IMG/VR virus record: IMGVR_UViG_3300021142_000007
Span: 1 to 64,000 of that record
Length of the DNA stretch: 64,000 nt
Strand: one strand, 5' to 3'
From: a virus
Shown here: piece by piece, positions 40,973 through 52,645 of the stretch
Position numbering within the stretch: position 1 is the stretch's first letter
Layout of the letters: every line of letters begins with the position of its first letter
Program-made: the position numbers and the translations under genes
The notes under the pieces: generated by a model
The model's input: the letters and a program-made list of their open reading frames with translations, nothing else
Told to the model about the DNA's origin: nothing
Database searches by the model: none

Positions 40973-41854
40973 TTAGTTAAGATTCTCATACACAAGCTGG
41001 TGGGCAGTTGTGTTTAGTTCGTTCGCCCTCGCATATAGGATTTTTTCCATATCTCCGCTTGCTATGTCGTGGGTCGTATACCTTGTAACGCCTTGCAATA
41101 AGCTAAACATATTCGCGCCTGTATTTTGCACTTCGATAGCCACCGCGCCATTTATAGCGTCTATAATGTTTCTTTTACGCGAAGTCAATTCGCTGTATTG
41201 GGCTACATTATAGCCTGTTAACTCGGTTATGAAGCTATCTATCTGTTTTTGCGTTACTGCCTTTAGAGACGCTGTATTGAGCAAATTTACATAGTTTTCA
41301 GTTTCGGCTACTACCTTTAAAATTTCGTTGGTAAAAGTTAGCAAACGGGCCTGGTTATTGGTCGTGTTTTTCATAGCTATATCCACATCTTTTTTCCAGT
41401 TTTTAGCACCGTTCGCGCACCATAGACGCAGGGCGTAGAAGCCTAGTGACATTTTGGTCTTACCGTCAAAGCCTGTGCGAAATTCGAGGGCTGTTTCGAG
41501 GGTATCACCTACCATAGGCGATTGTATTTCATATTTTTTTAATGGGAGGCGAAATACTACCTTTGACCCCTTTTGGTATTCGTTGTATGTTAATTTAGAC
41601 AGGTCAACATCTATACCTGAAGCTAATACGCTATTTTCGATAGCGTCCAGAAAAAGGGACAAATCGGTAGGCTCAAAAACGTCCCCCACCACGCCCAAAC
41701 AGTCCCCGCCTGTGTGCTTATATATACCGTAGCTTTTAGGGCTGTTAAAGCCTTCTAAGCCTGTATGTAGCTGTATTTTTTTAGCGTTAAATACTTGGCT
41801 TTTGAGGTTTGCAATGTGTGAACCTTGTGTTTCAAGAAAATTGAGAATTTCCAT
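40973..41854 (-). CDS. DUF932/DUF945-like phage-plasmid protein
   Basis: LGVVGDVFEP, GFDG, RLWCANG and LLQGVTRYTTH motifs. Confidence 0.75.
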   Translation of the reverse strand: MEILNFLETQGSHIANLKSQVFNAKKIQLHTGLEGFNSPKSYGIYKHTGGDCLGVVGDVFEPTDLSLFLDAIENSVLASGIDVDLSKLTYNEYQKGSKVVFRLPLKKYEIQSPMVGDTLETALEFRTGFDGKTKMSLGFYALRLWCANGAKNWKKDVDIAMKNTTNNQARLLTFTNEILKVVAETENYVNLLNTASLKAVTQKQIDSFITELTGYNVAQYSELTSRKRNIIDAINGAVAIEVQNTGANMFSLLQGVTRYTTHDIASGDMEKILYARANELNTTAHQLVYENLN

Positions 41855-42000
41855 TGTTGTGTGTTTTTTTTTGATTAATTAATGATGCGAATGTAAGTAA
41901 ATTAATTTAATTATGCAAGTCCTATCTTAATTAATTTCGTTTTAATTTACTTTTTAACATATTAGTAATTTAACATATATGTTAATTTTTTTATTTATAT

Positions 42001-42056
42001 GTATAGACGTAGTGGAGTATACCTCCCGACCCTTAGTGTCGTCCCGTCTGAATGAC
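42001..42056 (-). ncRNA. Putative structured small RNA, copy A
   Basis: Follows TATCTTTG promoter; hairpins CGAC/GTCG and GGAG-GTATA-CTCC; no ORF. Confidence 0.6.
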
Positions 42057-42123
42057 AATACAAAGATAAAAAAAAGGCTTGGATTTCCAAACCTTTTTTT
42101 GTTAATAGATGTTAATTTTTATC

Positions 42124-42642
42124 TTAGCCAAACATTACGGTAACTCCACATTTGATATGTTTGATATTGTCCATTTTAACGGTACGTACAATTATTGCCT
42201 CGTCTGTGCCTTGATTGGTCGGTGCTGTTGTTTTGGGTCTGAATTGCTTTATAGTGGCAATTTCGCTCTCGCTTGCTTCTATACCATCTATGTAGTATTT
42301 CAGTGTCTCGGACGTATTACAAGCAAATAGCAAATATAATTCTGTCGGGTCGCTTTTTTTGGCTACTATCGAACCGTTAAAGCTATCATTTACCTTTTGG
42401 AACCAATTTTCTTTAGCTGTGAAGTTAGCTTCTTTGCCCTCTTTAGCTAGTCTGTTGTTTACCATGTTAGCATAGTTAGCATTTAGAAGCATATTATAGC
42501 TAACTAGCTTGGTCACTTTTGACTTTGCGAAAGGATTGCCAGTTTTAAGTTGTTTTTGTTCAACTTCGGCTATCATTTGAGCGAATTTCGCTGAACCGCC
42601 ATCATTAATAAGTGTCTCGATTACTTGTGTTTTGTTGTTCAT
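42124..42642 (-). CDS. Conserved hypothetical phage protein
   Basis: 172-aa ORF with own promoter. Confidence 0.75.
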   Translation of the reverse strand: MNNKTQVIETLINDGGSAKFAQMIAEVEQKQLKTGNPFAKSKVTKLVSYNMLLNANYANMVNNRLAKEGKEANFTAKENWFQKVNDSFNGSIVAKKSDPTELYLLFACNTSETLKYYIDGIEASESEIATIKQFRPKTTAPTNQGTDEAIIVRTVKMDNIKHIKCGVTVMFG

Positions 42643-42719
42643 AACAGTGTGTTTTGATTGATTAATGATACAAATATAGGTTAATTAAATTAGAATAGCA
42701 AATTTTATTTGTTAAAAAA

Positions 42720-42995
42720 TCAAAGATTTTTGATAAATTGCTTTATCTTATCATATTCTTTTTTTCCATAATAAAAGACTACCGTTTTATCTTCGTGTAG
42801 CTTGCTTTTATAGCTGTGGCTATCTTCGATAGCTTGTGCTATATTTGCGCTCGTAGTACGTACATAAACGCCTGTTTGAGTACGTACCAATATAGTGCTA
42901 TGTGTGAGGGTATCTCTGCTTATTATTGTCGGTGCTGTGGCGTAGCTTGTTATTGATACAAGTATTAAAGTTAGTGTTAATAGTGTGTTTTTCAT
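42720..42995 (-). CDS. Small secreted protein
   Basis: Signal peptide MKNTLLTLTLILVSITSYA. Confidence 0.65.
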   Translation of the reverse strand: MKNTLLTLTLILVSITSYATAPTIISRDTLTHSTILVRTQTGVYVRTTSANIAQAIEDSHSYKSKLHEDKTVVFYYGKKEYDKIKQFIKNL

Positions 42996-43104
42996 TTCGT
43001 TTGATTGATAGGGCAAAGATAGTAATTTAAAATTACCAAACAAGTCCCTTAACATTTTTAACATATTAGCTATTTAATATATATGTTAATTTTTTTATGT
43101 ATAT

Positions 43105-43157
43105 GTATAGGCGTGTCGGAGTATACCTCCCGCTTCGCAGCGTCCCGTCTGATTGAC
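43105..43157 (-). ncRNA. Putative structured small RNA, copy B
   Basis: Follows TATATTTG; CGCT-GCGA-AGCG and GGAG-GTATA-CTCC hairpins. Confidence 0.6.
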
Positions 43158-43222
43158 AATACAAATATAAAAAAAGGATTTGGAATTACCAAATCCTTTT
43201 TGTTAATAGATGTTAAAAGACC

Positions 43223-43453
43223 TTATTTATTTGCATTGCGGTAGTGATAGTGTTTTTGTTTAATATGTGGCGTTGCATAGGGAGTTTTTGAGAAACGACC
43301 ACTAAAAAGACTTTCGTGTCCATGTACCAATTTTGCGCCATGTCCTCCATTTGAGTAACATGGAGATTCTTTGGTATGTGCTGAAGCAGATAGGGCAATG
43401 AGAGACAGAACAACTACCAATACGAAGATTTTTACCAATACTAAATTTTTCAT
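43223..43453 (-). CDS. Small secreted His-rich protein
   Basis: Signal peptide ending in ASA; own promoter. Confidence 0.6.
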   Translation of the reverse strand: MKNLVLVKIFVLVVVLSLIALSASAHTKESPCYSNGGHGAKLVHGHESLFSGRFSKTPYATPHIKQKHYHYRNANK

Positions 43454-43516
43454 TTGTGTGTTTTTTTTGAGTGATTAATAGGACAAAGATAGTAATTAAT
43501 TTGATACTTGCAAGGA

Positions 43517-43687
43517 CTAATTTGTTAATTTTTTAGGTCTATAACCTACTGAGTATACCGTACCATGATTTATACACATACGAAGATGTTTCCATATCTT
43601 CGTTTGTTTTGGACGTTTACAAGTTTGTGCCCCTACAATATTTTCTTTGCTCTTATTTGTTTCGTAGTAATAAAATTCGTATACCAT
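43517..43687 (-). CDS. Small protein not in the ORF track (MVYEFYYYETNK..., 56 aa)
   Basis: Hand translation; own promoter near 43711. Confidence 0.55.
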   Translation of the reverse strand: MVYEFYYYETNKSKENIVGAQTCKRPKQTKIWKHLRMCINHGTVYSVGYRPKKLTN

Positions 43688-43801
43688 GATGTGTGTTTTG
43701 ATTGATAGGACAAATATAAATAAAGTAATTTAAACCACCAAATAATATTTGTTAAAAAAAAGGACTACTTTCGTAGTCCTTTCTTAACCTATAAACACAC
43801 A

Positions 43802-44026
43802 CTATTTTACTTTGGTGCCATCCCATGTGCCGTATGCTTTAGCGTATGGATTACCACCTGAATATTTTTCAAATACCTTTATAACCGTGCCTTGTGGCAA
43901 GTCTGAATTTAGTTCATATCTACCACCACCGCCAAACATGGAGTAGTTTGTGCCGTATACCTTTTGTTTAGCAGTTAATGCTTCATTGATTGCTTTTTTA
44001 CTTTTAGCTTGTACGTAGATTTCCAT
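43802..44026 (-). CDS. Hypothetical protein
   Basis: Own promoter and downstream hairpin. Confidence 0.7.
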   Translation of the reverse strand: MEIYVQAKSKKAINEALTAKQKVYGTNYSMFGGGGRYELNSDLPQGTVIKVFEKYSGGNPYAKAYGTWDGTKVK

Positions 44027-44105
44027 TGTGTGTTATTTTTTGATTGATTAATGATACAAAGATAATGCTTTTTTTGAGACTTGCAAGTAATTTTTTGTTA
44101 AAAAT

Positions 44106-44315
44106 TTACATATGGTGACTATACTTGTTAATTAATGCTTTTGCTTCAGATATGAACGAAAGTCTGTCAATAGTTGTTTCGCATAAGCTACCATGTGTTT
44201 CTTCTTCGTATTGGACGCGCTTATCCGCTAGTTTATCTAATTTGTTAAGCCTATCCAAAATAAGGCTCATTTCCTTTGCCATCTTTAGTCTTAGTTGTGG
44301 TTCTTTGTTTGTCAT
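44106..44315 (-). CDS. Hypothetical protein
   Basis: ATG downstream of a promoter cassette. Confidence 0.65.
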   Translation of the reverse strand: MTNKEPQLRLKMAKEMSLILDRLNKLDKLADKRVQYEEETHGSLCETTIDRLSFISEAKALINKYSHHM

Positions 44316-44366
44316 GTGTGTTTTGATTGATAGGGCAAAGATACTAATTAAATTCATATTTCCAAA

Positions 44367-44567
44367 TTAATTTGTTGCTAATTTGAAGATTATTTTTTGC
44401 ACCTTTTTATGTCCTGAATGATAGCTGTCTCCGAATAGGCTTTTACCCATAAATGAGTCCCCTTTTATATTATTGCCTGAGACGGTCTTCATTTCGTCAT
44501 TATGTAGAATTGTGTCGCCAGCTTGGATATTTGAGATGTGTGTTTCTAGTATGCTATAATTGTACAT
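44367..44567 (-). CDS. Hypothetical protein
   Basis: HISNIQAGDTI...SLFGDSY; own promoter. Confidence 0.65.
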   Translation of the reverse strand: MYNYSILETHISNIQAGDTILHNDEMKTVSGNNIKGDSFMGKSLFGDSYHSGHKKVQKIIFKLATN

Positions 44568-44695
44568 GATTGATTGATTTGATAGGGCAAAGATACTAAT
44601 TAAATTCATATTTCCAAATTAAAATGAATTTATTTTTTTTTAAGATAAATTGTTAAATACTTTGGTAGTCTCAAATAAATAGCTATCTTTGTTGG

Positions 44696-44751
44696 GTCAT
44701 TCAGACAGGAGGTCGTCACCGACTTGAGGTAGACTCCGTCACGTCCCTATA
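44696..44751 (+). ncRNA. Putative structured small RNA, diverged copy D
   Basis: Follows TTTG...TATCTTTG; GGTCG-TCAC-CGACT and GAG-GTAGA-CTC hairpins. Confidence 0.55.
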
Positions 44752-44845
44752 TAAGGTAATTTTTAAATTTGTTAAAAAGTGTTAATTGGTTTGGTTTTTA
44801 AATTAATTAATTTATCTTTGCCCTATCAATCAAAACACATAATAT

Positions 44846-44986
44846 ATGAGCAAAGCACAAAAGAAGACGATGAAAGCGGTTTATCAAGTCCATATCGGGA
44901 TGAATGTCCTAGATGAGCATGGTATGTATAACTATGACCGAGCGAAGCGTAGAGCGAAATCCTATCATTACTGGAGGTCTAAATAA
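44846..44986 (+). CDS. Small basic protein (MSKAQKKTMK..., 46 aa)
   Basis: Hand translation; own TATCTTTG promoter at 44813. Confidence 0.55.
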   Translation: MSKAQKKTMKAVYQVHIGMNVLDEHGMYNYDRAKRRAKSYHYWRSK

Positions 44987-45047
44987 CTTCAAAAAAAGTG
45001 GGGCTACTATTTGGTAGTCCCATTTCTTTTTCATATATTTGCATTAT

Positions 45048-45179
45048 AATCGGGTGGCGAAATTGGTAGACGCACATAGAGTCATGGTGAAGCACTTTGT
45101 AAAAAGAAAGCCCATGTTTAAGTTTAAAGCTATCTATGATTGGTTGCAAACAATGCAGGTTCGAGTCCTGCTCCGATTA
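45048..45179 (+). tRNA. tRNA-Leu-like RNA with anticodon loop enlarged to about 52 nt
   Basis: Acceptor AATCGGG/TCCGATT; D arm GCGAAATTGGTAGACGC; stem CATAGA/TCTATG; T arm GCAGG-TTCGAGT-CCTGC. Confidence 0.7.
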
Positions 45180-45194
45180 CTTAAATCAATCAAT

Positions 45195-45332
45195 ATGTTA
45201 CTACTAGGTAAAAACCCAGAGATAACAGCTATCTTTGATTGTCAGCTTCAGTACTATATCGTTTATAAGAATGGTCAGGTATTGGTCAGTCACAAGTATC
45301 GCTACCGAGACATCGAGAGTTATCTTAATTAA
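45195..45332 (+). CDS. Small protein (MLLLGKNPE..., 45 aa)
   Basis: ATG after AATCAATCAAT leader; followed by terminator at ~45337-45365. Confidence 0.55.
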   Translation: MLLLGKNPEITAIFDCQLQYYIVYKNGQVLVSHKYRYRDIESYLN

Positions 45333-45421
45333 AATGAAAAGGCCCGAATTTCTTCGGGCTTTTTTGTTTGATATCTAGCCGAGCCTTCGCTGTCCGAGGT
45401 CGGTGTACACAATTGTGTATA

Positions 45422-45568
45422 CTAGGGCATTGGGAAGAAATGAAGGAGCAGACCGAATACTATTATGGTGCCAGTTGCACCGATTATAAGACCTACATTG
45501 AAGCCTTCGTTTAAGCCTTGTCTGTGGGCTTTTTCTATTTGTTGTTTGTAGATTGAATTTGTTTGCAT
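45422..45568 (-). CDS. Small membrane protein (48 aa)
   Basis: Hand translation; VGLIIGATGTIIVFGLLLHFF segment. Confidence 0.5.
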   Translation of the reverse strand: MQTNSIYKQQIEKAHRQGLNEGFNVGLIIGATGTIIVFGLLLHFFPMP

Positions 45569-45813
45569 GATTATTTTTTAAAGATAAACGGATAATAGAT
45601 GAATTTATACCAATAGACCTTAATCCAAGTCTTGATATTAACGTATCTCTCTATGAGCAATTGTCTTACACCTTTCCATCCTTTGGTGTTCTGTCTTTTA
45701 TAGTCTTGAATAAATGTGTTCATCTTAATTTATTTTTTTGTGAATAACTAAAAATATCAGTCTTCCATATAAGACCCCGATTGCTAGGCATATAAACCAA
45801 TATAGTAGTTCTA

Positions 45814-46056
45814 TCATGATTTATGAGTGTAGTAATTAGTGATTTCAACGAAGTTCTCCATAGAAGAGATGAATTCTGTTTTGATACGTAGAACGTCTTT
45901 TGGCGACTCTGATATACGATTATACTGCATAATAACAGGCAGTTGTGTTTGAGCGTCAATAATGACTATGAGGTCTTGACCAGCTTCTTTAGCGTTTTTA
46001 GCCTCGCGGTACATCATGTGTATGTTCAACTTAATGAACTCAAGTATTCTTTTCAT
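45814..46056 (-). CDS. Hypothetical protein
   Basis: Own promoter near 46076. Confidence 0.65.
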   Translation of the reverse strand: MKRILEFIKLNIHMMYREAKNAKEAGQDLIVIIDAQTQLPVIMQYNRISESPKDVLRIKTEFISSMENFVEITNYYTHKS

Positions 46057-46109
46057 GTTTGATTGATTTATGGTACAAATATAATACTTTTTTTGGTATC
46101 TCCAAATTC

Positions 46110-46310
46110 TTAGTCAGGTATTTTTTCAAATATTTCACCCAGTGATTTATAACCAAACATGTGGTTCAACCATAGATTACCAAAGACCCCACCATTATCA
46201 CCAACGAATCTAACTTGTGTTTCTTTGATAGATACGTCATAGACCTTATTTCGGCTGAGGATGCCAGCTTGTATTGGCAGTTCGTTTTTTGCTATGTATT
46301 TTACTTTCAT
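46110..46310 (-). CDS. Hypothetical protein
   Basis: Own promoter. Confidence 0.6.
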   Translation of the reverse strand: MKVKYIAKNELPIQAGILSRNKVYDVSIKETQVRFVGDNGGVFGNLWLNHMFGYKSLGEIFEKIPD

Positions 46311-46535
46311 GGTACAAATATAAGCATAAAAAACGAAACCCCCAAATTTCTTTGAGAGTTTCGTTCCTTTTTTATTACTATAATTTCAATGCTTATGACA
46401 AGATGTTTTATTTCATACCTTATAGAGTTTTGGGGTTAATTAATACTTATAAATTTTAACATTAATTCTCTTGATATTCCAGTTACTTATTTACTGGGAC
46501 TGCCTTTGTTTCGTGCCATTTTTCAGAGTTGTGAG

Positions 46536-46727
46536 TTAATTACTTTGTGCGAAGCTAAACGGATATGCTTTCTTGCCTTTGAGATTGCATACGCGGATGA
46601 AGGACTTGACCCTTTCGTCAGTGCCTTTGATGTACATGGTATTCGTACCACCTGAATAGCTTGCGTTTACACCGTATGCTTGCGCTGAAGCTTGCAGTGC
46701 TTTTTTTGGGCTTGTTGTTGTTAACAT
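46536..46727 (-). CDS. Hypothetical protein
   Basis: Own promoter. Confidence 0.65.
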   Translation of the reverse strand: MLTTTSPKKALQASAQAYGVNASYSGGTNTMYIKGTDERVKSFIRVCNLKGKKAYPFSFAQSN

Positions 46728-46794
46728 GATTTATTGTTTTTTGATTAATGATACAAAGATAAGACTTATTTTCGTATTTCCAAATCTTTATTTC

Positions 46795-47079
46795 TTAAAA
46801 GTTTGAATAAGTGTGTATGAAGCTTTCAACCATGATTCTTTCTTTTACCGACTCATATACGATTTCACCGCTAAATGATTCAGGTATTAGATATGAATCA
46901 AACATATTAACCATATCATCACCTATTTTTGCGGCATCATCTTCTGAATCACACATGATGATTGCATCTACACGATGCACCAAAGCTTTTTCACCTTCGG
47001 GTTTAGAGAATAGCTTCAATTCTTTTTCATCGAAATGGTGGAAGGTAATGTTTCCGAGGATTAGCAGTACTTTTTTCAT
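46795..47079 (-). CDS. Hypothetical protein
   Basis: Own promoter. Confidence 0.65.
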   Translation of the reverse strand: MKKVLLILGNITFHHFDEKELKLFSKPEGEKALVHRVDAIIMCDSEDDAAKIGDDMVNMFDSYLIPESFSGEIVYESVKERIMVESFIHTYSNF

Positions 47080-47122
47080 GATTGATTATTTTGTTAGGAC
47101 AAAGATAAGAATATTATCCGAA

Positions 47123-47434
47123 TTACCAATAAAGATTGATAGGAAATTTTACCTTGCTTTTGACCCATTTGAGTATTTCGTCAGCGTAGTAGCTTGTAGT
47201 TTCTTCGCACAGGTAGTCCAGCAATGCTCTTTCAGCCTTGCCACTATTATTGTCAGGGTTGATGGTTACTTCGATACGATGAACTTCTTTGGCTTTGCTT
47301 TGGTCGCTGTTTTTATTTGTGCCAGCTGATACGTCCCATAGCTTGCTGATTATGGTTACTTTGTTTTTGGTAGTTATTGCGGTGATAACTCCATTCTTTG
47401 CGTATTCGCCAATCTTGAATGTTTTGGTTGCCAT
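47123..47434 (-). CDS. Hypothetical protein
   Basis: TFKIGEY...TSYYADEILKWVKS; own promoter. Confidence 0.7.
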   Translation of the reverse strand: MATKTFKIGEYAKNGVITAITTKNKVTIISKLWDVSAGTNKNSDQSKAKEVHRIEVTINPDNNSGKAERALLDYLCEETTSYYADEILKWVKSKVKFPINLYW

Positions 47435-47470
47435 GATATGTGTTTTTGATTAATGATACAAAGATAAGAC

Positions 47471-47971
47471 TTATTTTCGTATTTCCAAGTCTTTTAGCTT
47501 ATTTTTTAGCAAATTCCAAAATAATTCATGGTCTTTCGCATTGAAGGAGAATATTTCGATTATAAAACAATTTATATTCGTATACTTCTCAAGGTTAGAA
47601 ATAACATCTAACCGATACTTATTTCTTAATTCATTTGGAGTCTTTCGCTTGTATTGACTAGCAGTCAGATACTCAAGGTTACCACTTATGTAGTTTTCTT
47701 TTAATACATCGATTATCTCTCCGAGCGTTTCCATTATTGCTTTGAAAGACTCTTTGGTATAGGTAAAGTGTAGATAACTTACGTTATCCCTTAGTAGATT
47801 TTCGCTACGCTTTGATAAGATGGTCTGTAGATTTGGATTGGCATTTATGGCATCCAATACCTCTAGCAAACCTTCATCTAGGTCCCAATCCTTATCGGTG
47901 AATTTCTTTGCCTTGTCCAATTCAGCCATATAATAGGTTTTGCTAGTGGCTGTCAGATATATCTCTTTCAT
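47471..47971 (-). CDS. Hypothetical protein
   Basis: 166-aa ORF. Confidence 0.65.
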   Translation of the reverse strand: MKEIYLTATSKTYYMAELDKAKKFTDKDWDLDEGLLEVLDAINANPNLQTILSKRSENLLRDNVSYLHFTYTKESFKAIMETLGEIIDVLKENYISGNLEYLTASQYKRKTPNELRNKYRLDVISNLEKYTNINCFIIEIFSFNAKDHELFWNLLKNKLKDLEIRK

Positions 47972-47972
47972 A

Positions 47973-48299
47973 TTATAGTTGTTCAGGTAGATAAGAAAAT
48001 ATGTATCCGTTCTCTTCGATAGCTAGGTCTACTATATCCTTTGCTTTTTGTTTTGCTTTATCTATAAAGCGTTTAAGGATAGGTTCTTGTTCCTCATAAT
48101 TAAAACCTATTGCTGTTAGGGTTCTTTTAAACTCAATTTGTGTTCTCATGTAGTATGTGACCAAATCTAATATTGCTTGTTCCTTTTCTTCTATTCGACA
48201 ACAAAGAACATCGTCAAATTCTATGTCATTACCAATGGTTATGAACTTGTGGCTTGTTGAACGGATGCTTACTTTTGTGTTTGCTATTCCCAGTATCAT
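47973..48299 (-). CDS. Hypothetical protein
   Basis: Own promoter near 48324. Confidence 0.65.
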   Translation of the reverse strand: MILGIANTKVSIRSTSHKFITIGNDIEFDDVLCCRIEEKEQAILDLVTYYMRTQIEFKRTLTAIGFNYEEQEPILKRFIDKAKQKAKDIVDLAIEENGYIFSYLPEQL

Positions 48300-48423
48300 T
48301 GTATTTGTTTTTGATTGATAGGACAAAGATAAGACTTATTTTCGTATTTCCAAATCCTAGCACAACTTTTTTTAAATAAAAAAGGAGGTACAAGTACCTC
48401 CCTTCTTAACAATCAATAAAACA

Positions 48424-49101
48424 CTAGCTTTCAGCTACAAGTAGCTCTATATATTCTTTTTCTGTCAGATGTCGTGGTGCTGTCAGAGGTTCATACTTTC
48501 CTTTCGGCTTTATGAGTATGCAGTCTCCCTGTCTTAGTACCTCTTTAATATGACCCTTCGGCACGTTGGTCTGTATCGTCCATGCAATAGCTTGTATTGC
48601 AGTTATCGGACAATCACTTAGACTATAAAACCACCTATCTTCATTTGTGGTATATACGCTTGCAGGGTCAACCCAAATAAAGTAGGTTCTATCTGTCGAA
48701 GTATCTTTGCACTTCACATAGTAGCAGTCTCTCATTGTCTGCCATGAATCCAAGCCTTCGTTGAAGTACGACCCATCTACTTCGTAGAGTTCGTATATAT
48801 CGTTGAACTTATGTTCGACCCTTTCGCCCTTTTCGTTCACCCAGTTAGTTGTCTTTTCGATGTTTTGGCGACTGATTAGTCTCGGCTTTACTTCATTTAC
48901 GAGACGTTCCAAGCCCAAGCATACTACGCCTACCCTTCTTTGTTCAAGGTTTGGTAGCCTTGCTATTTCTTTGAAGGTCAAAGGCTTGATACTATCCCAA
49001 GTATCTTTTAGTTCAGGAAAAGGACACTCGCTGTTTTTTAGCTTCAATAAACGACTTCCTATTTCGTGTGGAAACTTTTGGCTGTTTACAATGATATTCA
49101 T
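48424..49101 (-). CDS. Conserved phage protein, DUF6745-like
   Basis: NLEQRRV, VKCKDTSTDRTYFIWV, AIQAIAWT and RQGD motifs. Confidence 0.65.
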   Translation of the reverse strand: MNIIVNSQKFPHEIGSRLLKLKNSECPFPELKDTWDSIKPLTFKEIARLPNLEQRRVGVVCLGLERLVNEVKPRLISRQNIEKTTNWVNEKGERVEHKFNDIYELYEVDGSYFNEGLDSWQTMRDCYYVKCKDTSTDRTYFIWVDPASVYTTNEDRWFYSLSDCPITAIQAIAWTIQTNVPKGHIKEVLRQGDCILIKPKGKYEPLTAPRHLTEKEYIELLVAES

Positions 49102-49171
49102 TTATATGTTTTTTATGTTAGGCAAAGATAAGGAAGTATTCGGAATTTCCAAATACTTCCATGATTTTTTT

Positions 49172-49795
49172 TTAGTCGCTTTCTTTATAAACGTAGCCTT
49201 GTTTGCTAACGCTTATGGTCAACATATTGTCAGATAACTTAATATCTCCTTCGCCTGTGGTGAAGGTGAACCACCCACCTGATTCATCTTCAATCGCTTT
49301 TAGGCAGAAACCTTCGGCTGTGTCTCTTATTTTATCCACTATGCTTTTGGCTCTTGCTTCGTCTTCATCGGTTATAATGAAGTCATGCTTATATAGCACC
49401 GCTTCGTTATCATCATCACCGTTTATGTTTCGGATATGATTAGCCACAAATTCAGCTTCTTCTTTCGATAGTTCTACGGTAGTGTCTTCGGTGAAGGTTT
49501 CGCTAAATTCAGATGTAGCATCCTTGCTAAAGGACAGGTCATCTTCGTCCAATTCGATTGTAACCACACCGTTTTCGCCTATGTAGTGTCCATCTGAATT
49601 TACATAGAAGTCTACCTTGTCATAGATTACTTCATTTATGTATTCATCTATTTCAGGTACTTGTATTTCTTCTCCATCCTTATTGAGGATTGTAATGTCT
49701 GTATCGCCCATGCTATCACCACCGCAGTCAAAAGTGAAGTCTACGTGGTCTACGTTTTTTTCTTTCCAAAGACTGATTATTTCTTCTTTACGCAT
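49172..49795 (-). CDS. Acidic conserved phage protein, DUF6878-like
   Basis: FDCGGDS motif. Confidence 0.6.
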   Translation of the reverse strand: MRKEEIISLWKEKNVDHVDFTFDCGGDSMGDTDITILNKDGEEIQVPEIDEYINEVIYDKVDFYVNSDGHYIGENGVVTIELDEDDLSFSKDATSEFSETFTEDTTVELSKEEAEFVANHIRNINGDDDNEAVLYKHDFIITDEDEARAKSIVDKIRDTAEGFCLKAIEDESGGWFTFTTGEGDIKLSDNMLTISVSKQGYVYKESD

Positions 49796-49953
49796 TTTCT
49801 TGTTTTAATTTATGATGCAAATTTATGTAAATAAAATTAAACCACCAAATTTATTTGCTTATTTTTTAAATTATTTTCTAACTCAGGTACGAATCTTATT
49901 CTAAAATCTTGACTTTTACACAAAAATAATATATTTATTGTAAAAACAAAATT

Positions 49954-50739
49954 ATGGATACAAAAATTTGCAATAAGTGTAATCTGGATAAGCCAGTCAA
50001 TGAGTATTATAAAGACAAAACAAAAAAAGATGGTTTAGCTTCTTTTTGTATTGAATGTAAAAAACGTAGCGGTAAATTGTCATATGAAAAAAATGCTGAG
50101 AAAAGAATAGCAAAAGCTAAACAATATCGTGAGCAAAATAGAGATAAAGTAAACAAAAAAAATAAGCTCTATTATCTTAAAAATAAACAAACTTTTTCTG
50201 AAAAATCCAAAATTTATCGTGAGGCAAATTCAGATAATATAAAGAAGATGAGTAAACAATACTATGAAGAAAATAAGCATAAGGTACTGGAGCGTTATTT
50301 TAAAAATAGAGAAAACGAATTAAAAAGAATGAAAGATTGGAAAAAAGACAATCGAAAAAGACTAGCAGAGTATCAAAGAAACTATTATCAATCTCGAAAG
50401 AAAAAAGACCCATTGTTTAAATTAACTCTAAACATTAGAGGGTTAATAAGATTATCAATTAAAAATAAAGGGTTAAAGAAAAACTCTAAAACCTCTGATA
50501 TACTTGGCTGTTCGTTTGAAGAATTTAAAATCTATTTAGAATCTAAGTTTGAGTCTTGGATGAATTGGGATAACTATGGGCTTTATAACGGGGAGCCAAA
50601 CTATGGTTGGGATATTGACCATATAATACCTTTAGCTACTGCCTTAAAGGAAGAAGACTTGCTAAGTTTAAACCACTACACTAATCTTCAACCATTATGT
50701 AGTTATTTGAACAGAGACGTTAAAAAAGATAATTATTGA
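49954..50739 (+). mobile_element. Free-standing HNH homing endonuclease-like gene
   Basis: CNKC...CIEC; LGCSFEEF...WMNWDNYG...WDIDHIIP...HYTNLQPL; antisense to its neighbours and AT-richer. Confidence 0.85.
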
Positions 50740-51134
50740 ACATTCTCTTTTAATTTCTCTTTAAATTCTTTTGCTGTTTCATATGCTTCAGGGTTATCTA
50801 AAGGTTTTACTCCGTTACACATCCAAGGTTGCACTTGCATATGTTTTAGATAATCCTGCGGTGTTGGTATGAAGGTTCTGAAGTCTTCAAGAATATGTAG
50901 CATTGCTATATCTACCGTATCAACGCTACGACCATCTGAATTTACTATGTTGTAGCCAAATACCTTTGGTATGATATTATATGCAAACCAAGTATTATGT
51001 GTCAGGAAACGTGAAGTATTGTTGTTCATTGCACCCTTAGGACTATCAAGTAGTTCATGAAGTTGTAGGTAGTCTTCGGGCTTACCACCCCAACGCTTAA
51101 CGCTTGACTTTGAATGTAAGTATGGATTTGCCAT
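50733..51134 (-). CDS. Conserved phage protein, DUF6915-like
   Basis: HSKSSVKRWGGKPEDY...HILED...IPTPQDYL. Confidence 0.75.
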   Translation of the reverse strand: MANPYLHSKSSVKRWGGKPEDYLQLHELLDSPKGAMNNNTSRFLTHNTWFAYNIIPKVFGYNIVNSDGRSVDTVDIAMLHILEDFRTFIPTPQDYLKHMQVQPWMCNGVKPLDNPEAYETAKEFKEKLKENVQ

Positions 51135-51201
51135 GTTTGATTGATTGATAGGACAAAGATACAAAAAGTATTTGAATTTGCAAGAACTAATTTGTTAAAA
51201 A

Positions 51202-51462
51202 TTAATCCCAAACTTGGCTAATGCTACCCTCAAAAGGATTGTATTCTACTTGCTTTCCTAGTACATAGTTTCCTTTTTTTACGAAAAGAGCCATGTGTTC
51301 AGCTTGCGAACCATCAGGCTTTTCGTGCTTTAGTATGCTATCTTCGTTCACCTTTATAGGTGCGAAGTCAGCAGGTTTCTCGTCTACGGTCAGGCTTCCA
51401 TAAAGGGTATGTTGGTGCGAACCTTCGCCTTTAAGTAGGATTTGTCTTTTTGTTTTTGGCAT
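51202..51462 (-). CDS. Conserved phage protein
   Basis: LKGEGSHQH...EH...QVEYNP pattern. Confidence 0.7.
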   Translation of the reverse strand: MPKTKRQILLKGEGSHQHTLYGSLTVDEKPADFAPIKVNEDSILKHEKPDGSQAEHMALFVKKGNYVLGKQVEYNPFEGSISQVWD

Positions 51463-51514
51463 GAGTATTTTATTTATGATGCAAATATACTAATTAATTT
51501 TGAAAAAACAAATC

Positions 51515-51697
51515 TTATTCGATTTCTTTTATTTCCATTATATCAACATCAGCACCGTATTGTTTTGATAGCACTGGCGCAATCGTTGAATTAAATTCAT
51601 TTCTTGCCATTTCTTCATCACTGGCTTTAACCGTTACATTTCCTGTGGTGAACCCTTCATCACAATGATAATTGAACCTTATATTAAACTTTTTCAT
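51515..51697 (-). CDS. Hypothetical protein
   Basis: Start at MKKFNIRF after promoter near 51715. Confidence 0.6.
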   Translation of the reverse strand: MKKFNIRFNYHCDEGFTTGNVTVKASDEEMARNEFNSTIAPVLSKQYGADVDIMEIKEIE

Positions 51698-51814
51698 GTT
51701 GGTTTCTTTTAATGCAAATCTATGAATAAATATCCGAAAAAACAAGCATTTACCTAAATAAAAATAATTTGTTAAATGCTTGGTGAATTCAAGTCTTTTG
51801 CTTATGTTTGTTTT

Positions 51815-51868
51815 GTCATTCAGACGGGACGCTGCAAAGCGGGAGGTATACTCCACTACGTCCCTATA
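51815..51868 (+). ncRNA. Putative structured small RNA, copy C
   Basis: Follows TATGTTTG; CGCT-GCAA-AGCG and GGAG-GTATA-CTCC hairpins. Confidence 0.6.
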
Positions 51869-51938
51869 TTAAATACTACATAAAATAAAAAAGGGGGCAA
51901 GGATGCCCCCGCGAACCCTAGGCGGTTCGGTTAATCAA

Positions 51939-52133
51939 TCAAAATTTATCAGTAATGGCTTTCGCCTTGAGGTCTGTTAGTTTTTTCTCAGCAATTGCTA
52001 TGACCATACTAGAAGCGACTTTAACGTCTATTTCATTTTCGTATGCTATTTGTGCCAGAAGGTCGGCGCATTTACCTATGTTAGATAACTTAGTTATGTT
52101 ATCCATTTCTTCTTGTGTTAATTTGTTTACCAT
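51939..52133 (-). CDS. Hypothetical protein
   Basis: Own promoter. Confidence 0.6.
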   Translation of the reverse strand: MVNKLTQEEMDNITKLSNIGKCADLLAQIAYENEIDVKVASSMVIAIAEKKLTDLKAKAITDKF

Positions 52134-52207
52134 GATATGTGTGTTTTGATTAATGATACAAAGATAATAAAAGGTTTGGAAATTCCAAACCTTTTATCAT
52201 ATTTTTT

Positions 52208-52645
52208 TTATTTTGATAGGTTTGCTATCATTTTCTCCAATGCTTCAATACGTTTGTTTTGAGCGTCAAACATCTCTCTGATTGGCTTGGGTACAAGTAT
52301 ATTAAATTCTTTTACCCTTAGTGCTTCTTTTACTTTATTTCGACCCTCAAAGGTAGGTATATCTAGCTTTAGTTCGCTACCAAAGGTTTTTTTATACTCC
52401 CTTGATATACTGGCTTTGATACCTGTTGTCTTAGCTTCAAGGTATTGTCTGATTAGCCTATCCTTATCCATAGTAAGGTGTGCCTTATGCTGTGGACTTA
52501 GTTTTTCTCTCTTAGGCATGAGATTTGCGCTAGTTAAGATACTCCATACCTTGTGGTATGTAAGACCCAAAGAAGCTGAAATTTCTTTGGCTTTTTTGCC
52601 TTTGTTAGCGTATTCGATTACTTTGTCTTTGATTTCTGCTGACAT
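52208..52645 (-). CDS. HTH-domain protein
   Basis: GKKAKEISASLGLTYHKVWSIL. Confidence 0.65.
   Translation of the reverse strand: MSAEIKDKVIEYANKGKKAKEISASLGLTYHKVWSILTSANLMPKREKLSPQHKAHLTMDKDRLIRQYLEAKTTGIKASISREYKKTFGSELKLDIPTFEGRNKVKEALRVKEFNILVPKPIREMFDAQNKRIEALEKMIANLSK

What the first reader, a model, noticed from the sequence alone, without database searches (positions are those of the whole stretch)
45048..45179. tRNA-Leu-like RNA with a ~52-nt structured insert replacing the anticodon loop
Seen: intact acceptor, D and T arms and a long variable region. The CATAGA/TCTATG stem closes 52 nt (45081-45132) containing a CATGG...CCATG pairing. The RNA has its own TATATTTG promoter at 45034. 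The insert is far shorter than bacterial group I tRNA introns. Inference: a tRNA with a short protein-spliced intron, a tRNA-mimic decoy (e.g. for anticodon nucleases), or an RNase P/Z processing signal for the downstream 45-aa ORF.
Basis: partly seen in the sequence, partly recalled or inferred. Interest (0 to 1): 0.75.

Follow-up and report, generated by a model that had tools for sequence, protein, structure and literature searches.

The report
Anticodon-less leucine-tRNA-shaped phage RNA gene
This phage gene encodes an RNA with the ends and elbow of a leucine tRNA but a 52-base insert in place of the anticodon loop; it is one more member of a large, little-studied family of phage tRNA look-alikes, and a near-identical sister strain lacks exactly this gene.

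Summary
Window 45048-45179 has an intact acceptor stem, a leucine-type D arm, a class II variable arm and a T arm. A 6-bp stem closes 52 nt (45081-45132) where a 7-nt anticodon loop should be. Default ARAGORN and Rfam do not call it.

- **Intron reading not supported.** ARAGORN's intron mode calls it two different ways. It also of 300 constructs with a shuffled middle.
- **Family membership.** It matches tRNA-Leu-framed, anticodon-less phage RNAs: 68 IMG/VR loci, with covarying acceptor and T stems. Phage T5 RNA1, annotated as a 'tRNA-like stable RNA with unknown functions', matches the family model. This scan has met the family before on other DNA and elsewhere in this genome.
- **New here.**
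  - A contig from another lake metagenome joins 45046 to 45182, with 98.8-99.4% identical flanks, so the whole element is a precise presence/absence unit.
  - It sits between a TAnnTTTG promoter box and a 45-aa ORF.
  - The family keeps A73 and U48, two LeuRS identity elements that my search pattern did not fix.

No RNA data exist and the function is unknown.

The parts
44996..45032 (+). Intrinsic terminator of the upstream 46-aa ORF (44846-44986). It marks the 5' border of the transcription unit.
   Evidence: 13-pair stem at 44996-45025 followed by a T run. The region has 4 terminator-like sites against 0.5 +/- 0.9 in shuffles.
45034..45041 (+). TATATTTG box (TAnnTTTG), the likely promoter. 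It ends 6 nt before the element's first base.
   Evidence: 147 TAnnTTTG matches in the window against 88.95 +/- 10.18 expected, with 0 of 100 shuffles reaching 147; the same box plus leader is repeated 10-11 times in front of small ORFs between 41.5 and 52.5 kb. Its identity as a Bacteroidota -7 element is recalled.
45047..45181 (+). 135-nt segment missing from a near-identical strain. It covers the whole tRNA-like gene, with 3 nt of ambiguity at the joint.
   Evidence: table 5: run X4 has one contig of 3607 nt at depth 7.95 that joins 45046 to 45182 ('skips 135', 255 letters on the shorter side, 3 letters fit both sides). Its flanks differ at 4 of 347 and 2 of 319 positions (table 8).
45048..45074 (+). 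5' part of the tRNA frame: acceptor 5' strand 45048-45054, U8 G9, and the leucine-type D arm 45057-45073 (loop AAAUUGGUAGA with G18 G19 and A20a).
   Evidence: Base numbering follows the E. coli tRNA-Leu layout, which is recalled. The identity elements are from passages of PMC9976931.
45075..45138 (+). Stem CATAGA/TCTATG (45075-45080 with 45133-45138) closing a 52-nt insert (45081-45132). The insert has an inner CATGG/CCATG helix and a GUAA-capped hairpin, and there is no 7-nt anticodon loop.
   Evidence: The fold z-score is not significant. The insert has no relative among 72 family inserts, in IMG/VR or elsewhere in the record.
45139..45154 (+). Class II variable arm (16 nt), ending in U48 at 45154.
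   Evidence: The base 5' of the T stem is at least 90% T in alignment A1, and T in 76 of 82 members.
45155..45180 (+). T arm (45155-45171), acceptor 3' strand (45172-45178), discriminator A73 (45179) and C (45180). No CCA is encoded.
45195..45332 (+). 45-aa ORF that starts 15 nt after A73. It is co-transcribed with the element by layout.
   Evidence: It has no PHROG match.
45342..45368 (.). GC-rich hairpin with T runs on both strands. It is the terminator at the end of the unit.
   Evidence: One search lists it on the - strand at 45359-45342. The + strand T run after the hairpin is read directly.

Best explanation
Element 1 is a non-decoding RNA gene. It belongs to the phage family of tRNA-Leu-framed, anticodon-less RNAs, whose one catalogued member is phage T5 RNA1.

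Proposed working, with every step inferred:
1. Transcription starts a few bases after the TATATTTG box. It runs through the element and the 45-aa ORF to the terminator at 45342-45368.
2. The frame (acceptor stem, D arm, T arm) folds into a tRNA L-shape.
3. The host's tRNA enzymes trim the frame: RNase P at 45048 and 3' trimming after A73, followed by CCA addition.
4. This releases a stable RNA of about 133 nt and leaves the ORF with a 15-nt leader.
5. The frame keeps the elements that bacterial LeuRS needs and the anticodon is not among them, so the RNA is probably leucylated.
6. It cannot read a codon, because a 52-nt insert replaces the anticodon loop.

The frame would then serve as a processing and stability chassis, and possibly a charging chassis, for the insert, much like the engineered 'tRNA scaffold'. 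The target of the insert is unknown. The gene is dispensable and behaves as a discrete cassette, because a sister strain lacks exactly it.
For: Not a canonical tRNA:
- Default ARAGORN and Rfam RF00005 do not call it, even at E <= 10.

Family:
- A pattern made of its D arm, a 58-88 nt gap and a T loop finds 68 IMG/VR loci, giving 56 distinct sequences.
- None of the 58 aligned sequences is called by default ARAGORN.
- All 7 acceptor pairs and 3 of 5 T-stem pairs show changes on both sides. 97.4% of cells pair, against 35-42% when slid, and 0 of 500 shuffles reach the observed values.
- The covariance model finds 127 matches in those loci, often in arrays.
- It matches T5 RNA1 over the model's full length at 47.6 bits, E 2.8e-12.

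Leucine identity:
- Features not fixed by my pattern are conserved: A73 in 65 of 82 members, U48 in 76 of 82, U8 in 80 of 82.
- Element 1 has all three.
- E. coli LeuRS needs A73, A15-U48, G18G19 and A20a. It does not need the anticodon or the variable arm, and tRNA-Leu variants lacking the anticodon arm are still charged (passages of PMC9976931).

Processing like tRNAs:
- The base after the discriminator is C in 70 of 82 members.
- It is C in 92 of 113 canonical tRNAs from the same loci.

Insert treated as cargo:
- Only 6 similar pairs occur among 72 inserts.
- One of these pairs has the same insert in different acceptor stems (L023 and L066).
- Two members share flanks and acceptor stem but carry different inserts (L037 at 1773 and L054 at 5600).

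Cassette behaviour and transcription unit:
- One search shows the precise absence in a sister strain.
- define the promoter box and the terminators.
Against: - No RNA evidence exists for this element. No RNA run was listed.
- The family was gathered with a pattern taken from this element's own D arm, so D-arm invariance is by construction.
- Element 1 was part of the model's training set, so its 81.7 bits are partly by construction.
- Its insert is an orphan. It has no relatives and no significant predicted fold (z = -0.71 and +0.30).
- Family inserts as a whole fold only slightly better than shuffles: median z is -0.73 and only 5 of 72 fall below -2. Neutral drift of an unconstrained middle is therefore possible.
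- Unlike many members, element 1 keeps a closed anticodon-type stem and a normal variable arm. Its 3' part also holds a UUUAAAG stretch that could be a tRNA-Leu(UAA) anticodon loop, so an interrupted tRNA-Leu is not excluded.
- T5 RNA1 has U, not A, at the discriminator position. Leucylation therefore cannot be a universal property of the kind.
- A sister strain does without the element.
Confidence: 0.6

Rival explanations
1. It is a real decoding tRNA whose short intron (43-52 nt) is removed by a protein-based or otherwise unknown pathway. The product would be tRNA-Leu(UAA), or a leucine-bodied tRNA with anticodon CAU.
For: - ARAGORN -i proposes both forms.
- The closing stem, the variable arm and the frame are all intact.
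- UUUAAAG near the 3' end of the insert has U33, anticodon UAA and a purine at position 37.
- Lak megaphages of Prevotella are reported to have tRNAs with 'enigmatic' introns (abstract and passages of PMC6784885).
- Three genome contigs (MAGs by their titles) carry tRNA-Leu-like genes followed by CCA, with 27-29 nt inserts by ARAGORN's intron mode inside an extended anticodon stem (L111, L116, L123).
- The complete relative G001 encodes Rnl2-type RNA ligases.
Against: - The ARAGORN intron call carries no weight here. It of 300 shuffled-middle constructs (25 as Leu, 2 as Met) and 33 of 58 family members.
- Only 4 of those 33 calls are Leu, about what chance gives.
- The two parses of element 1 contradict each other.
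- The UAA parse needs a C-C mismatch in the anticodon stem.
- The CAU parse places the 5' splice site inside a helix, so there is no bulge-helix-bulge motif.
- No splicing endonuclease or RtcB is found in G000 or G001.
- Group I is excluded by the insert's size and by the absence of an Rfam match.
- No intron-less allele was seen, only an allele lacking the whole gene.
Confidence: 0.1
2. It is a selfish or decaying element: a mobile or recently inserted tRNA-like unit, or a tRNA-Leu gene broken by an insertion, that does nothing for the phage.
For: - The whole element is precisely absent from a near-identical strain.
- The insert is an orphan without a significant fold.
- It is solitary rather than part of an array.
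- The orthologous neighbourhood in the relative G001 lacks it. So do all 9 metagenome relatives, which gave 0 of 9 model matches.
- Related loci are mosaic around such elements.
Against: - The frame shows no decay. It scores 81.7 bits, inside the range of the 82 family members taken at 50 bits or more (50.6-91.7), and it keeps U8, U48 and A73.
- The filled form is identical over 45065-45500 and 45075-45500 in two other runs.
- It sits in a clean promoter-to-terminator unit.
- Family-wide covariation shows that the frame is under selection.
Confidence: 0.15
3. Its job is in cis. It is a tRNA-shaped processing signal, like the t-elements of plant mitochondria, that lets RNase P and RNase Z set the 5' end of the downstream mRNA. 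The released RNA would be a by-product.
For: - The element lies 15 nt upstream of the ORF start.
- 30 of 81 family members have an ORF of at least 30 aa starting 5-45 nt downstream, and 24 of those start at 13-24 nt. A uniform spread would put about 9 there.
- Element 2 lies between two same-strand ORFs.
Against: - The sister strain expresses the same ORF from the same promoter without the element.
- A processing signal needs only the acceptor and T arms, not a strictly conserved leucine-type D arm, U48 and A73.
- It does not explain the long and diverse inserts or the arrays.
- The downstream ORFs are unrelated to one another: 1 similar pair among 31.
- 51 of 81 members have no such ORF.
Confidence: 0.15

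Closest known systems
Phage T5 RNA1 (AY543070, 30501-30644; misc_RNA annotated 'tRNA-like stable RNA with unknown functions')
   Same: - It has a leucine-type D arm (GAAUUGGUAGA loop), a T arm and an acceptor stem.
- 80 nt lie between the D and T arms and there is no anticodon loop.
- It matches the family model over the model's full length at 47.6 bits.
- It has a 6-bp variable-arm-like hairpin just before the T arm, as element 1 does.
   Different: - The discriminator is U and pair 1:72 is a U-U mismatch.
- Its insert folds well (z = -3.2) and is unrelated in sequence.
- It lies inside the T5 tRNA cluster, whereas element 1 is solitary.
- Its host is E. coli.
- Its expression is known only from the record's annotation. 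I read no primary paper.
Canonical class II tRNA-Leu (Rfam RF00005), for example T4 tRNA-Leu
   Same: - The acceptor, D, variable and T arms are the same.
- The LeuRS identity set A73, A15-U48, G18G19 and A20a is the same.
- T4 tRNA-Leu scores 40.1 bits with the family model.
   Different: - There is no 7-nt anticodon loop. 52 nt take its place.
- Neither Rfam nor default ARAGORN calls it.
'Enigmatic' tRNA introns of Lak megaphages (Devoto et al. 2019, PMC6784885)
   Same: - These are oversized phage tRNA genes that bacterial tRNA finders miss and that can be read as intron-bearing.
- Presence and absence vary between strains.
- The hosts are Bacteroidota (abstract and passages).
   Different: - There the insert alone is present or absent and the tRNA keeps an assignable anticodon.
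- Here the whole gene is present or absent and no consistent anticodon exists.
- Their intron sequences are in supplements that I could not open.
Engineered tRNA scaffold for recombinant RNA (Ponchon and Dardel; method recalled; PMC3753655 seen only in the listing)
   Same: An RNA of interest replaces the anticodon stem-loop of a tRNA. The cell's tRNA enzymes then process and stabilise it. This is how I think the element works.
   Different: It is man-made, and it is an analogy of working, not a family.
Minimal tRNA-Leu lacking the anticodon arm (Larkin et al. 2002, as summarised in PMC9976931)
   Same: It shows that LeuRS charges leucine-type frames that have no anticodon arm, provided A73 and the D/T-loop contacts are kept.
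   Different: These are laboratory constructs of E. coli tRNA. Charging of element 1 has not been tested.
T4 species 1 RNA (rnaC, AF158101 70908-71046)
   Same: It is a small stable phage RNA of unknown function next to tRNA genes, and it has a T arm.
   Different: It gives only a weak, partial match of 18.9 bits and has no leucine-type D arm.

Membership tests
Phage tRNA-Leu-framed anticodon-less RNAs (T5 RNA1 type) | 7-bp acceptor stem and 5-bp T stem with a GGTTCRANTCC loop, both covarying across members | tested here: met
   One search shows 7 of 7 and 5 of 5 pairs in element 1. One search shows family covariation: 97.4% of cells pair and 0 of 500 shuffles reach the observed values.
Phage tRNA-Leu-framed anticodon-less RNAs (T5 RNA1 type) | Leucine-type D arm: 3-bp stem and an 11-nt loop with G18G19 and A20a | tested here: met
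   This feature was used to collect the family, so its invariance among members is by construction.
Phage tRNA-Leu-framed anticodon-less RNAs (T5 RNA1 type) | U8, U48 and A73 kept | tested here: met
   Element 1 has U at 45055, U at 45154 and A at 45179. In the family the counts are 80 of 82, 76 of 82 and 65 of 82.
Phage tRNA-Leu-framed anticodon-less RNAs (T5 RNA1 type) | Long middle between the D and T arms (43-100 nt, against about 38 in tRNA-Leu), with no canonical anticodon loop, and missed by default tRNA finders | tested here: met
   The middle of element 1 is 81 nt. Searches show no default call, and 0 of 58 aligned sequences are called by default ARAGORN.
Phage tRNA-Leu-framed anticodon-less RNAs (T5 RNA1 type) | Made as a stable, processed RNA | not testable with these tools
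   No RNA run was listed. The only expression evidence for the kind is the T5 record's annotation.
Canonical elongator tRNA (RF00005) | 7-nt anticodon loop on a 5-bp stem, and a score above the Rfam gathering threshold | tested here: not met
   There is no RF00005 match even at E <= 10 and no default ARAGORN call.
tRNA with an archaeal or eukaryal-type intron | Intron at 37/38 with both splice sites in the 3-nt bulges of a bulge-helix-bulge motif | tested here: not met
   In the CAU parse the 5' site lies inside the CATGG/CCATG helix. The 3' site lies in a 16-nt unpaired stretch (read by eye).
tRNA with an archaeal or eukaryal-type intron | A splicing endonuclease and an RtcB-type ligase are available | tested here: inconclusive
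   PF01974 and PF01139 are absent from G000, which is 36% complete, and from the complete relative G001. The host genome is unknown.
Group I intron in tRNA-Leu(UAA) | Ribozyme core of about 200 nt or more that matches Rfam group I | tested here: not met
   The insert is 52 nt. Rfam gives no match.
tmRNA | Alanine-type acceptor with G3-U70, a tag reading frame, and detection by ARAGORN -m | tested here: not met
   ARAGORN -t -m finds no tmRNA in the record. Pair 3:70 is U-A.
Y RNA-like tRNA mimics (YrlA) | RNA ends lie in the Ro-binding stem, the tRNA-like module is internal, and Rfam Y RNA models match | tested here: not met
   There is no Rfam match. Here the ends lie in the acceptor stem. 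The YrlA topology is recalled.

The most novel reading that the evidence does not exclude
The element is a mobile, tRNA-sized RNA gene cassette. It is a leucylatable tRNA-Leu chassis that displays an exchangeable cargo RNA. It is gained or lost as a unit exactly at its RNA ends, and here it has landed at the transcription start of a promoter-ORF module. Phages would keep changing sets of such chassis-borne RNAs as decoys or aptamers against host factors, with leucylation or EF-Tu/LeuRS binding as part of how they act.
Probability: 0.15. Interest if true: 0.85.

Novelty: new member of a known kind. Interest (0 to 1): 0.55.

Why it matters
Phage tRNA genes are usually explained by codon supply or by escape from tRNA-cutting defences. 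This element cannot decode, yet it keeps what LeuRS, RNase P and the CCA enzyme recognise.

It belongs to a family seen in at least 68 viral contigs and a few bacterial contigs. I found only a database annotation for one member (T5 RNA1) and no paper.

The new points for this member make the family testable:
- There is a natural filled versus empty pair of near-identical strains.
- The transcription unit is defined.
- There is a clear prediction that the RNA is processed, CCA-tailed, leucylated and not spliced.

If the charged, cargo-bearing reading holds, it would be a natural counterpart of the engineered tRNA scaffold and a new use of aminoacylation by viruses.

Tried and rejected
**Close relatives of element 1: none found.**
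- BLAST of the 2.5-kb region (near mode) and of the 171-nt element (distant mode, E <= 0.01) against 50,697 phage records gave no match.
- IMG/VR pattern scans gave no hits for the anticodon-type stem with a gap, the insert core and the variable arm.
- The acceptor plus D arm pattern hit only L096, which is not an orthologue.

**Neighbour gene (80 aa, 44367-44609).**
- IMG/VR held 1 relative, L071/G001 at 64% identity. It has no tRNA-like gene within 8.2 kb.
- Metagenome contigs held 9 relatives at 46-66% identity. None of the 9 has a model match at E <= 1.

**Empty sites for two other family members.** The flanks of the L004/L007 group and of the L021 group, searched with a 0-20 nt gap, gave 0 hits each. 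The precise indel therefore rests on one contig of one run.

**Expression.** No RNA holder was listed.

**Antisense target of the insert in the 135-kb record.** The best matches are 13-mers at E 0.12, which is chance level.

**Conserved downstream protein partner.** The 31 downstream ORFs gave 1 similar pair. The 45-aa ORF has no PHROG match.

**Promoter box close upstream as a family feature.** Only 5 of 82 members have TAnnTTTG within 12 nt.

**Anticodon-stem plus variable-arm layout as a family rule.** It is weak: 11 of 72 members against 5.6% of shuffles.

**Genome contigs.** Of the 19 loci:
- 4 are a 5' tRNA fragment followed by a full tRNA-Leu (candidate-phyla bacteria).
- 1 is a normal tRNA-Leu followed by a second T loop.
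- 1 is masked by N.
- 1 has a giant variable arm.
- 3 are followed by CCA and have inserts in the anticodon arm.
- About 9 look like the family (by eye).

**Literature.** Six searches found no description of this family.
- PMC10690425 reports tRNA-like candidates in IMG/VR only in general terms (passages). Its supplementary list may contain this family.
- Supplementary Table 6 of PMC6784885 holds the Lak intron sequences.
- I could not open either supplement.

**Rows dropped.**
- 1 match at a locus edge (L061).
- 13 of 85 members that my regular expression could not split.
- Matches under 50 bits and the duplicate-sequence rows.
- 1 of 82 members without room downstream.
Full report
**What is there.**

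The window is the first 64 kb of a 135,399-bp IMG/VR virus record that CheckV rates 36% complete. It encodes T4-type capsid (Gp23), portal (Gp20) and large terminase proteins. A neighbour gene has a 64%-identical relative in a complete 371,504-bp phage, G001. The element therefore belongs to a very large freshwater phage; the holders listed are freshwater metagenomes.

- acceptor stem 45048-45054 with 45172-45178
- A73 at 45179
- D arm 45057-45073, with the loop AAAUUGGUAGA typical of bacterial tRNA-Leu
- stem CATAGA/TCTATG closing exactly 52 nt (45081-45132)
- a 16-nt variable arm ending in U48 (45154)
- T arm 45155-45171

Default ARAGORN finds only a tRNA-Glu in the window. Rfam's tRNA model gives nothing here, either at the gathering threshold or at E <= 10.

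**Intron or not.**

ARAGORN in intron mode does call the element, but inconsistently. In genomic context it reports tRNA-Met(CAT) with a 45-nt intron after position 37. On the isolated element it reports tRNA-Leu(TAA) with a 43-nt intron.

I ran two controls:
- The same mode of 58 related elements, with 18 different specificities counting one Stop. Only 4 are Leu, about what chance gives.
- It of 300 constructs in which the element's ends were kept and its 81-nt middle was shuffled (25 as Leu, 2 as Met).

With an intact frame, an 'intron' call is therefore the default outcome and is no evidence.

Other points against an intron:
- In the CAT parse the 5' splice site lies inside the CATGG/CCATG helix, so there is no bulge-helix-bulge motif (by eye).
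- The TAA parse needs a C-C mismatch in the anticodon stem.
- 52 nt is far too short for a group I intron, and Rfam finds none.
- Neither this record nor G001 encodes a tRNA splicing endonuclease or RtcB. G001 does have Rnl2-type ligases.

The intron reading is not excluded without RNA data. I give it 0.1.

**The family.**

The record holds a second such gene at 81506-81608 on the minus strand. It has the same D arm, and a GGAA-capped hairpin and another hairpin replace the anticodon arm. Rfam's tRNA model scores it 34.4 bits only by skipping that region.

A pattern made of the D arm, a gap of 58-88 nt and a T loop finds 68 IMG/VR loci. A normal tRNA-Leu has about 38 nt in that gap. The loci yield 56 distinct sequences.

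In the alignment of these with the two elements (A1):
- The ends align and the middle does not.
- All 7 acceptor pairs and 3 of 5 T-stem pairs show changes on both sides.
- 97.4% of cells pair, against 35-42% when partners are slid by 1-3 columns.
- There are 176 double-change cells against 45 +/- 7 in shuffles, and 0 of 500 shuffles reach the observed values.

A covariance model of the frame (R1) gives these results:
- In this record it finds only the two elements, at 81.7 and 70.8 bits. The next match scores 12.1 bits. Both elements were in the training set.
- In the 68 loci it finds 127 matches, often several per locus.
- It matches phage T5 RNA1 over the model's full length at 47.6 bits. 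T5 RNA1 is annotated in AY543070 as a 'tRNA-like stable RNA with unknown functions'.
- T4 species 1 RNA matches only weakly, at 18.9 bits.
- Genuine T4 tRNA-Leu scores 40.1 bits, so the model recognises the leucine frame and not the absence of an anticodon.

This scan has described the family before on other DNA, and has described the second element of this genome. I reached the second element and the family before reading those notes. I tested the T5 lead myself.

**What the frame conserves.**

My pattern fixed the D arm and the T loop, so their invariance means nothing. Three positions were not fixed by the pattern:
- the base 5' of the T stem (U48) is T in 76 of 82 members
- position 8 is T in 80 of 82
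- the discriminator is A in 65 of 82

According to passages of Giege and Eriani 2023 (PMC9976931), E. coli LeuRS needs A73, the A15-U48 pair, G18G19 and A20a. It does not need the anticodon or the variable arm. tRNA-Leu variants lacking the anticodon arm are still charged as long as A73 and the D/T-loop contacts are kept. Element 1 has all of these. That it is leucylated is an inference from this.

T5 RNA1 has U at the discriminator position, so charging cannot be universal in the kind.

CCA is encoded in only 5 of 82 members. The base after the discriminator is C in 70 of 82 members. It is also C in 92 of 113 canonical tRNAs of the same loci, taking ARAGORN's end coordinate, which for element 1 lies one base past A73. 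This suggests the same 3' processing as for ordinary tRNAs.

**The inserts.**

- Among 72 members that my script could split (13 of 85 were dropped), only 6 pairs have similar middles. Elements 1 and 2 have no relative.
- L023 and L066 carry the same insert (98.7% over 75 nt) in different acceptor stems.
- L037 at 1773 and L054 at 5600 share flanks and acceptor stem but carry unrelated inserts.
- L005 and L033 differ by what looks like a compensated stem (by eye).
- Inserts fold only a little better than shuffles: median z is -0.73 and 5 of 72 fall below -2. T5 RNA1 is at -3.2 and element 1 at -0.71.
- The insert of element 1 has no copy in IMG/VR and no antisense target in the record beyond chance.

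The inserts behave as exchangeable cassettes. Whether they are effectors or unconstrained filler is open, and for element 1 the evidence for a functional insert is weak.

**Context and the empty site.**

The element lies in a short plus-strand island among minus-strand genes:
- terminator at 44996-45032
- TATATTTG box at 45034-45041
- the element
- a 45-aa ORF starting 15 nt after A73
- terminator at 45342-45368

TAnnTTTG is enriched in the window, 147 matches against 89 +/- 10, with 0 of 100 shuffles reaching 147. With a short leader it is repeated 10-11 times in front of small ORFs nearby. I recall this motif as the -7 element of Bacteroidota promoters. No call supports that attribution.

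I laid contigs of four other freshwater metagenome runs on 44700-45500:
- One 3607-nt contig of run X4 (depth about 8) joins 45046 directly to 45182. It skips 135 nt with 3 letters of ambiguity. Its flanks differ at 4 of 347 and 2 of 319 positions.
- Runs X2 and X3 hold the filled form without any difference over 45065-45500 and 45075-45500.

The whole gene, and nothing else, is therefore present in some strains and absent in another. The empty form is an ordinary promoter-leader-ORF module. This shows the element is a discrete, dispensable unit placed at about the transcription start. It does not say whether the element was inserted or deleted, and it rests on one contig.

Two attempts to find empty sites for other members found none.

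In the family, 30 of 81 members have an ORF of at least 30 aa starting 5-45 nt downstream, against 27% at random positions. 24 of the 30 start at 13-24 nt. The downstream ORFs are unrelated to one another.

**Distribution.**

The same pattern hits 19 contigs among genomes of 185,579 species. By eye, about 9 look like the family. They come from Bacteroidota (Bacteroides, Saprospiraceae, Arcicella, Maribacter, Ohtaekwangia), Proteobacteria and a cyanobacterium. Three are followed by CCA and have inserts inside an extended anticodon stem. The rest are tRNA fragments next to a full tRNA-Leu, or other cases.

**Verdict.**

The element is a new member of the T5 RNA1 kind of phage tRNA-like RNA: a leucine-tRNA frame without an anticodon.

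I commit, at 0.6, to a processed, stable, non-decoding RNA, probably CCA-tailed and leucylated, whose frame serves as a chassis for the insert.

The rivals are:
- a functionless mobile or decaying unit (0.15)
- a cis processing signal for the ORF (0.15)
- an intron-bearing tRNA (0.1)

Six literature searches found no description of the family.

Noticed in passing
G000:C1:81506-81608 (-), outside the window (L002:1424-1526): A second tRNA-Leu-framed RNA gene of 103 nt has the same D arm. A GGAA-capped hairpin and a second hairpin replace the anticodon arm. It lies between two same-strand ORFs. Rfam tRNA scores it 34.4 bits and R1 scores it 70.8 bits.
   Followed up: partly
window 44684-44767 (+) and 51803-51884 (+): A TAnnTTTG box is followed by a structured element of about 55 nt with no ORF. 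Two copies appeared as repeat families D8 and D10. One copy lies only 300 nt upstream of element 1. The scan's own notes list more copies.
   Followed up: no
window 41500-52500, e.g. 44313-44370, 44565-44622: A promoter-plus-leader module is repeated 10-11 times in front of small minus-strand ORFs (families D1 and D3). It consists of a TATCTTTG or TATATTTG box, about 20 nt rich in ATCAATCAA, and then ATG. A 43-nt piece of the plus-strand copy (44797-44839) recurs on other metagenome contigs (table 8).
   Followed up: partly
G000:C1 about 127170-127320 (-) and 125850-126000 (-), outside the window: Two more T-loop-bearing, tRNA-like stretches lie in the phage's tRNA cluster. ARAGORN does not call them, and their regions between the D and T arms are odd or oversized.
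   Followed up: no
G001 (complete 371,504-bp relative), e.g. 323543-323719 (-), 188323-188569 (-), 190208-190335 (-): Many oversized tRNA-like genes of 105-177 nt are present. One is a leucine-type frame with a middle of about 125 nt, and others use a class I D arm.
   Followed up: no
L005, L008, L022, L062 (4178), L064, L066: the 20-25 nt just upstream of the element: Six family members are preceded by a similar small hairpin whose loop reads GGAAAGAC or a near variant. It ends 4-6 nt before the first base of the element (by eye).
   Followed up: no
L111, L116, L123 (contigs titled Amylibacter, Saccharimonadales and Acidobacteria MAGs): These are tRNA-Leu-like genes followed by CCA. Each has a 27-29 nt insert by ARAGORN's intron mode inside an extended anticodon stem. 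Default ARAGORN does not call them. They may be short interrupted tRNA-Leu genes of bacteria.
   Followed up: partly
L037 versus L054 (IMG/VR arrays): Two related arrays of these elements are mosaics. Their similarity blocks begin and end inside or at the elements, as if the conserved D and T arms were recombination points.
   Followed up: partly
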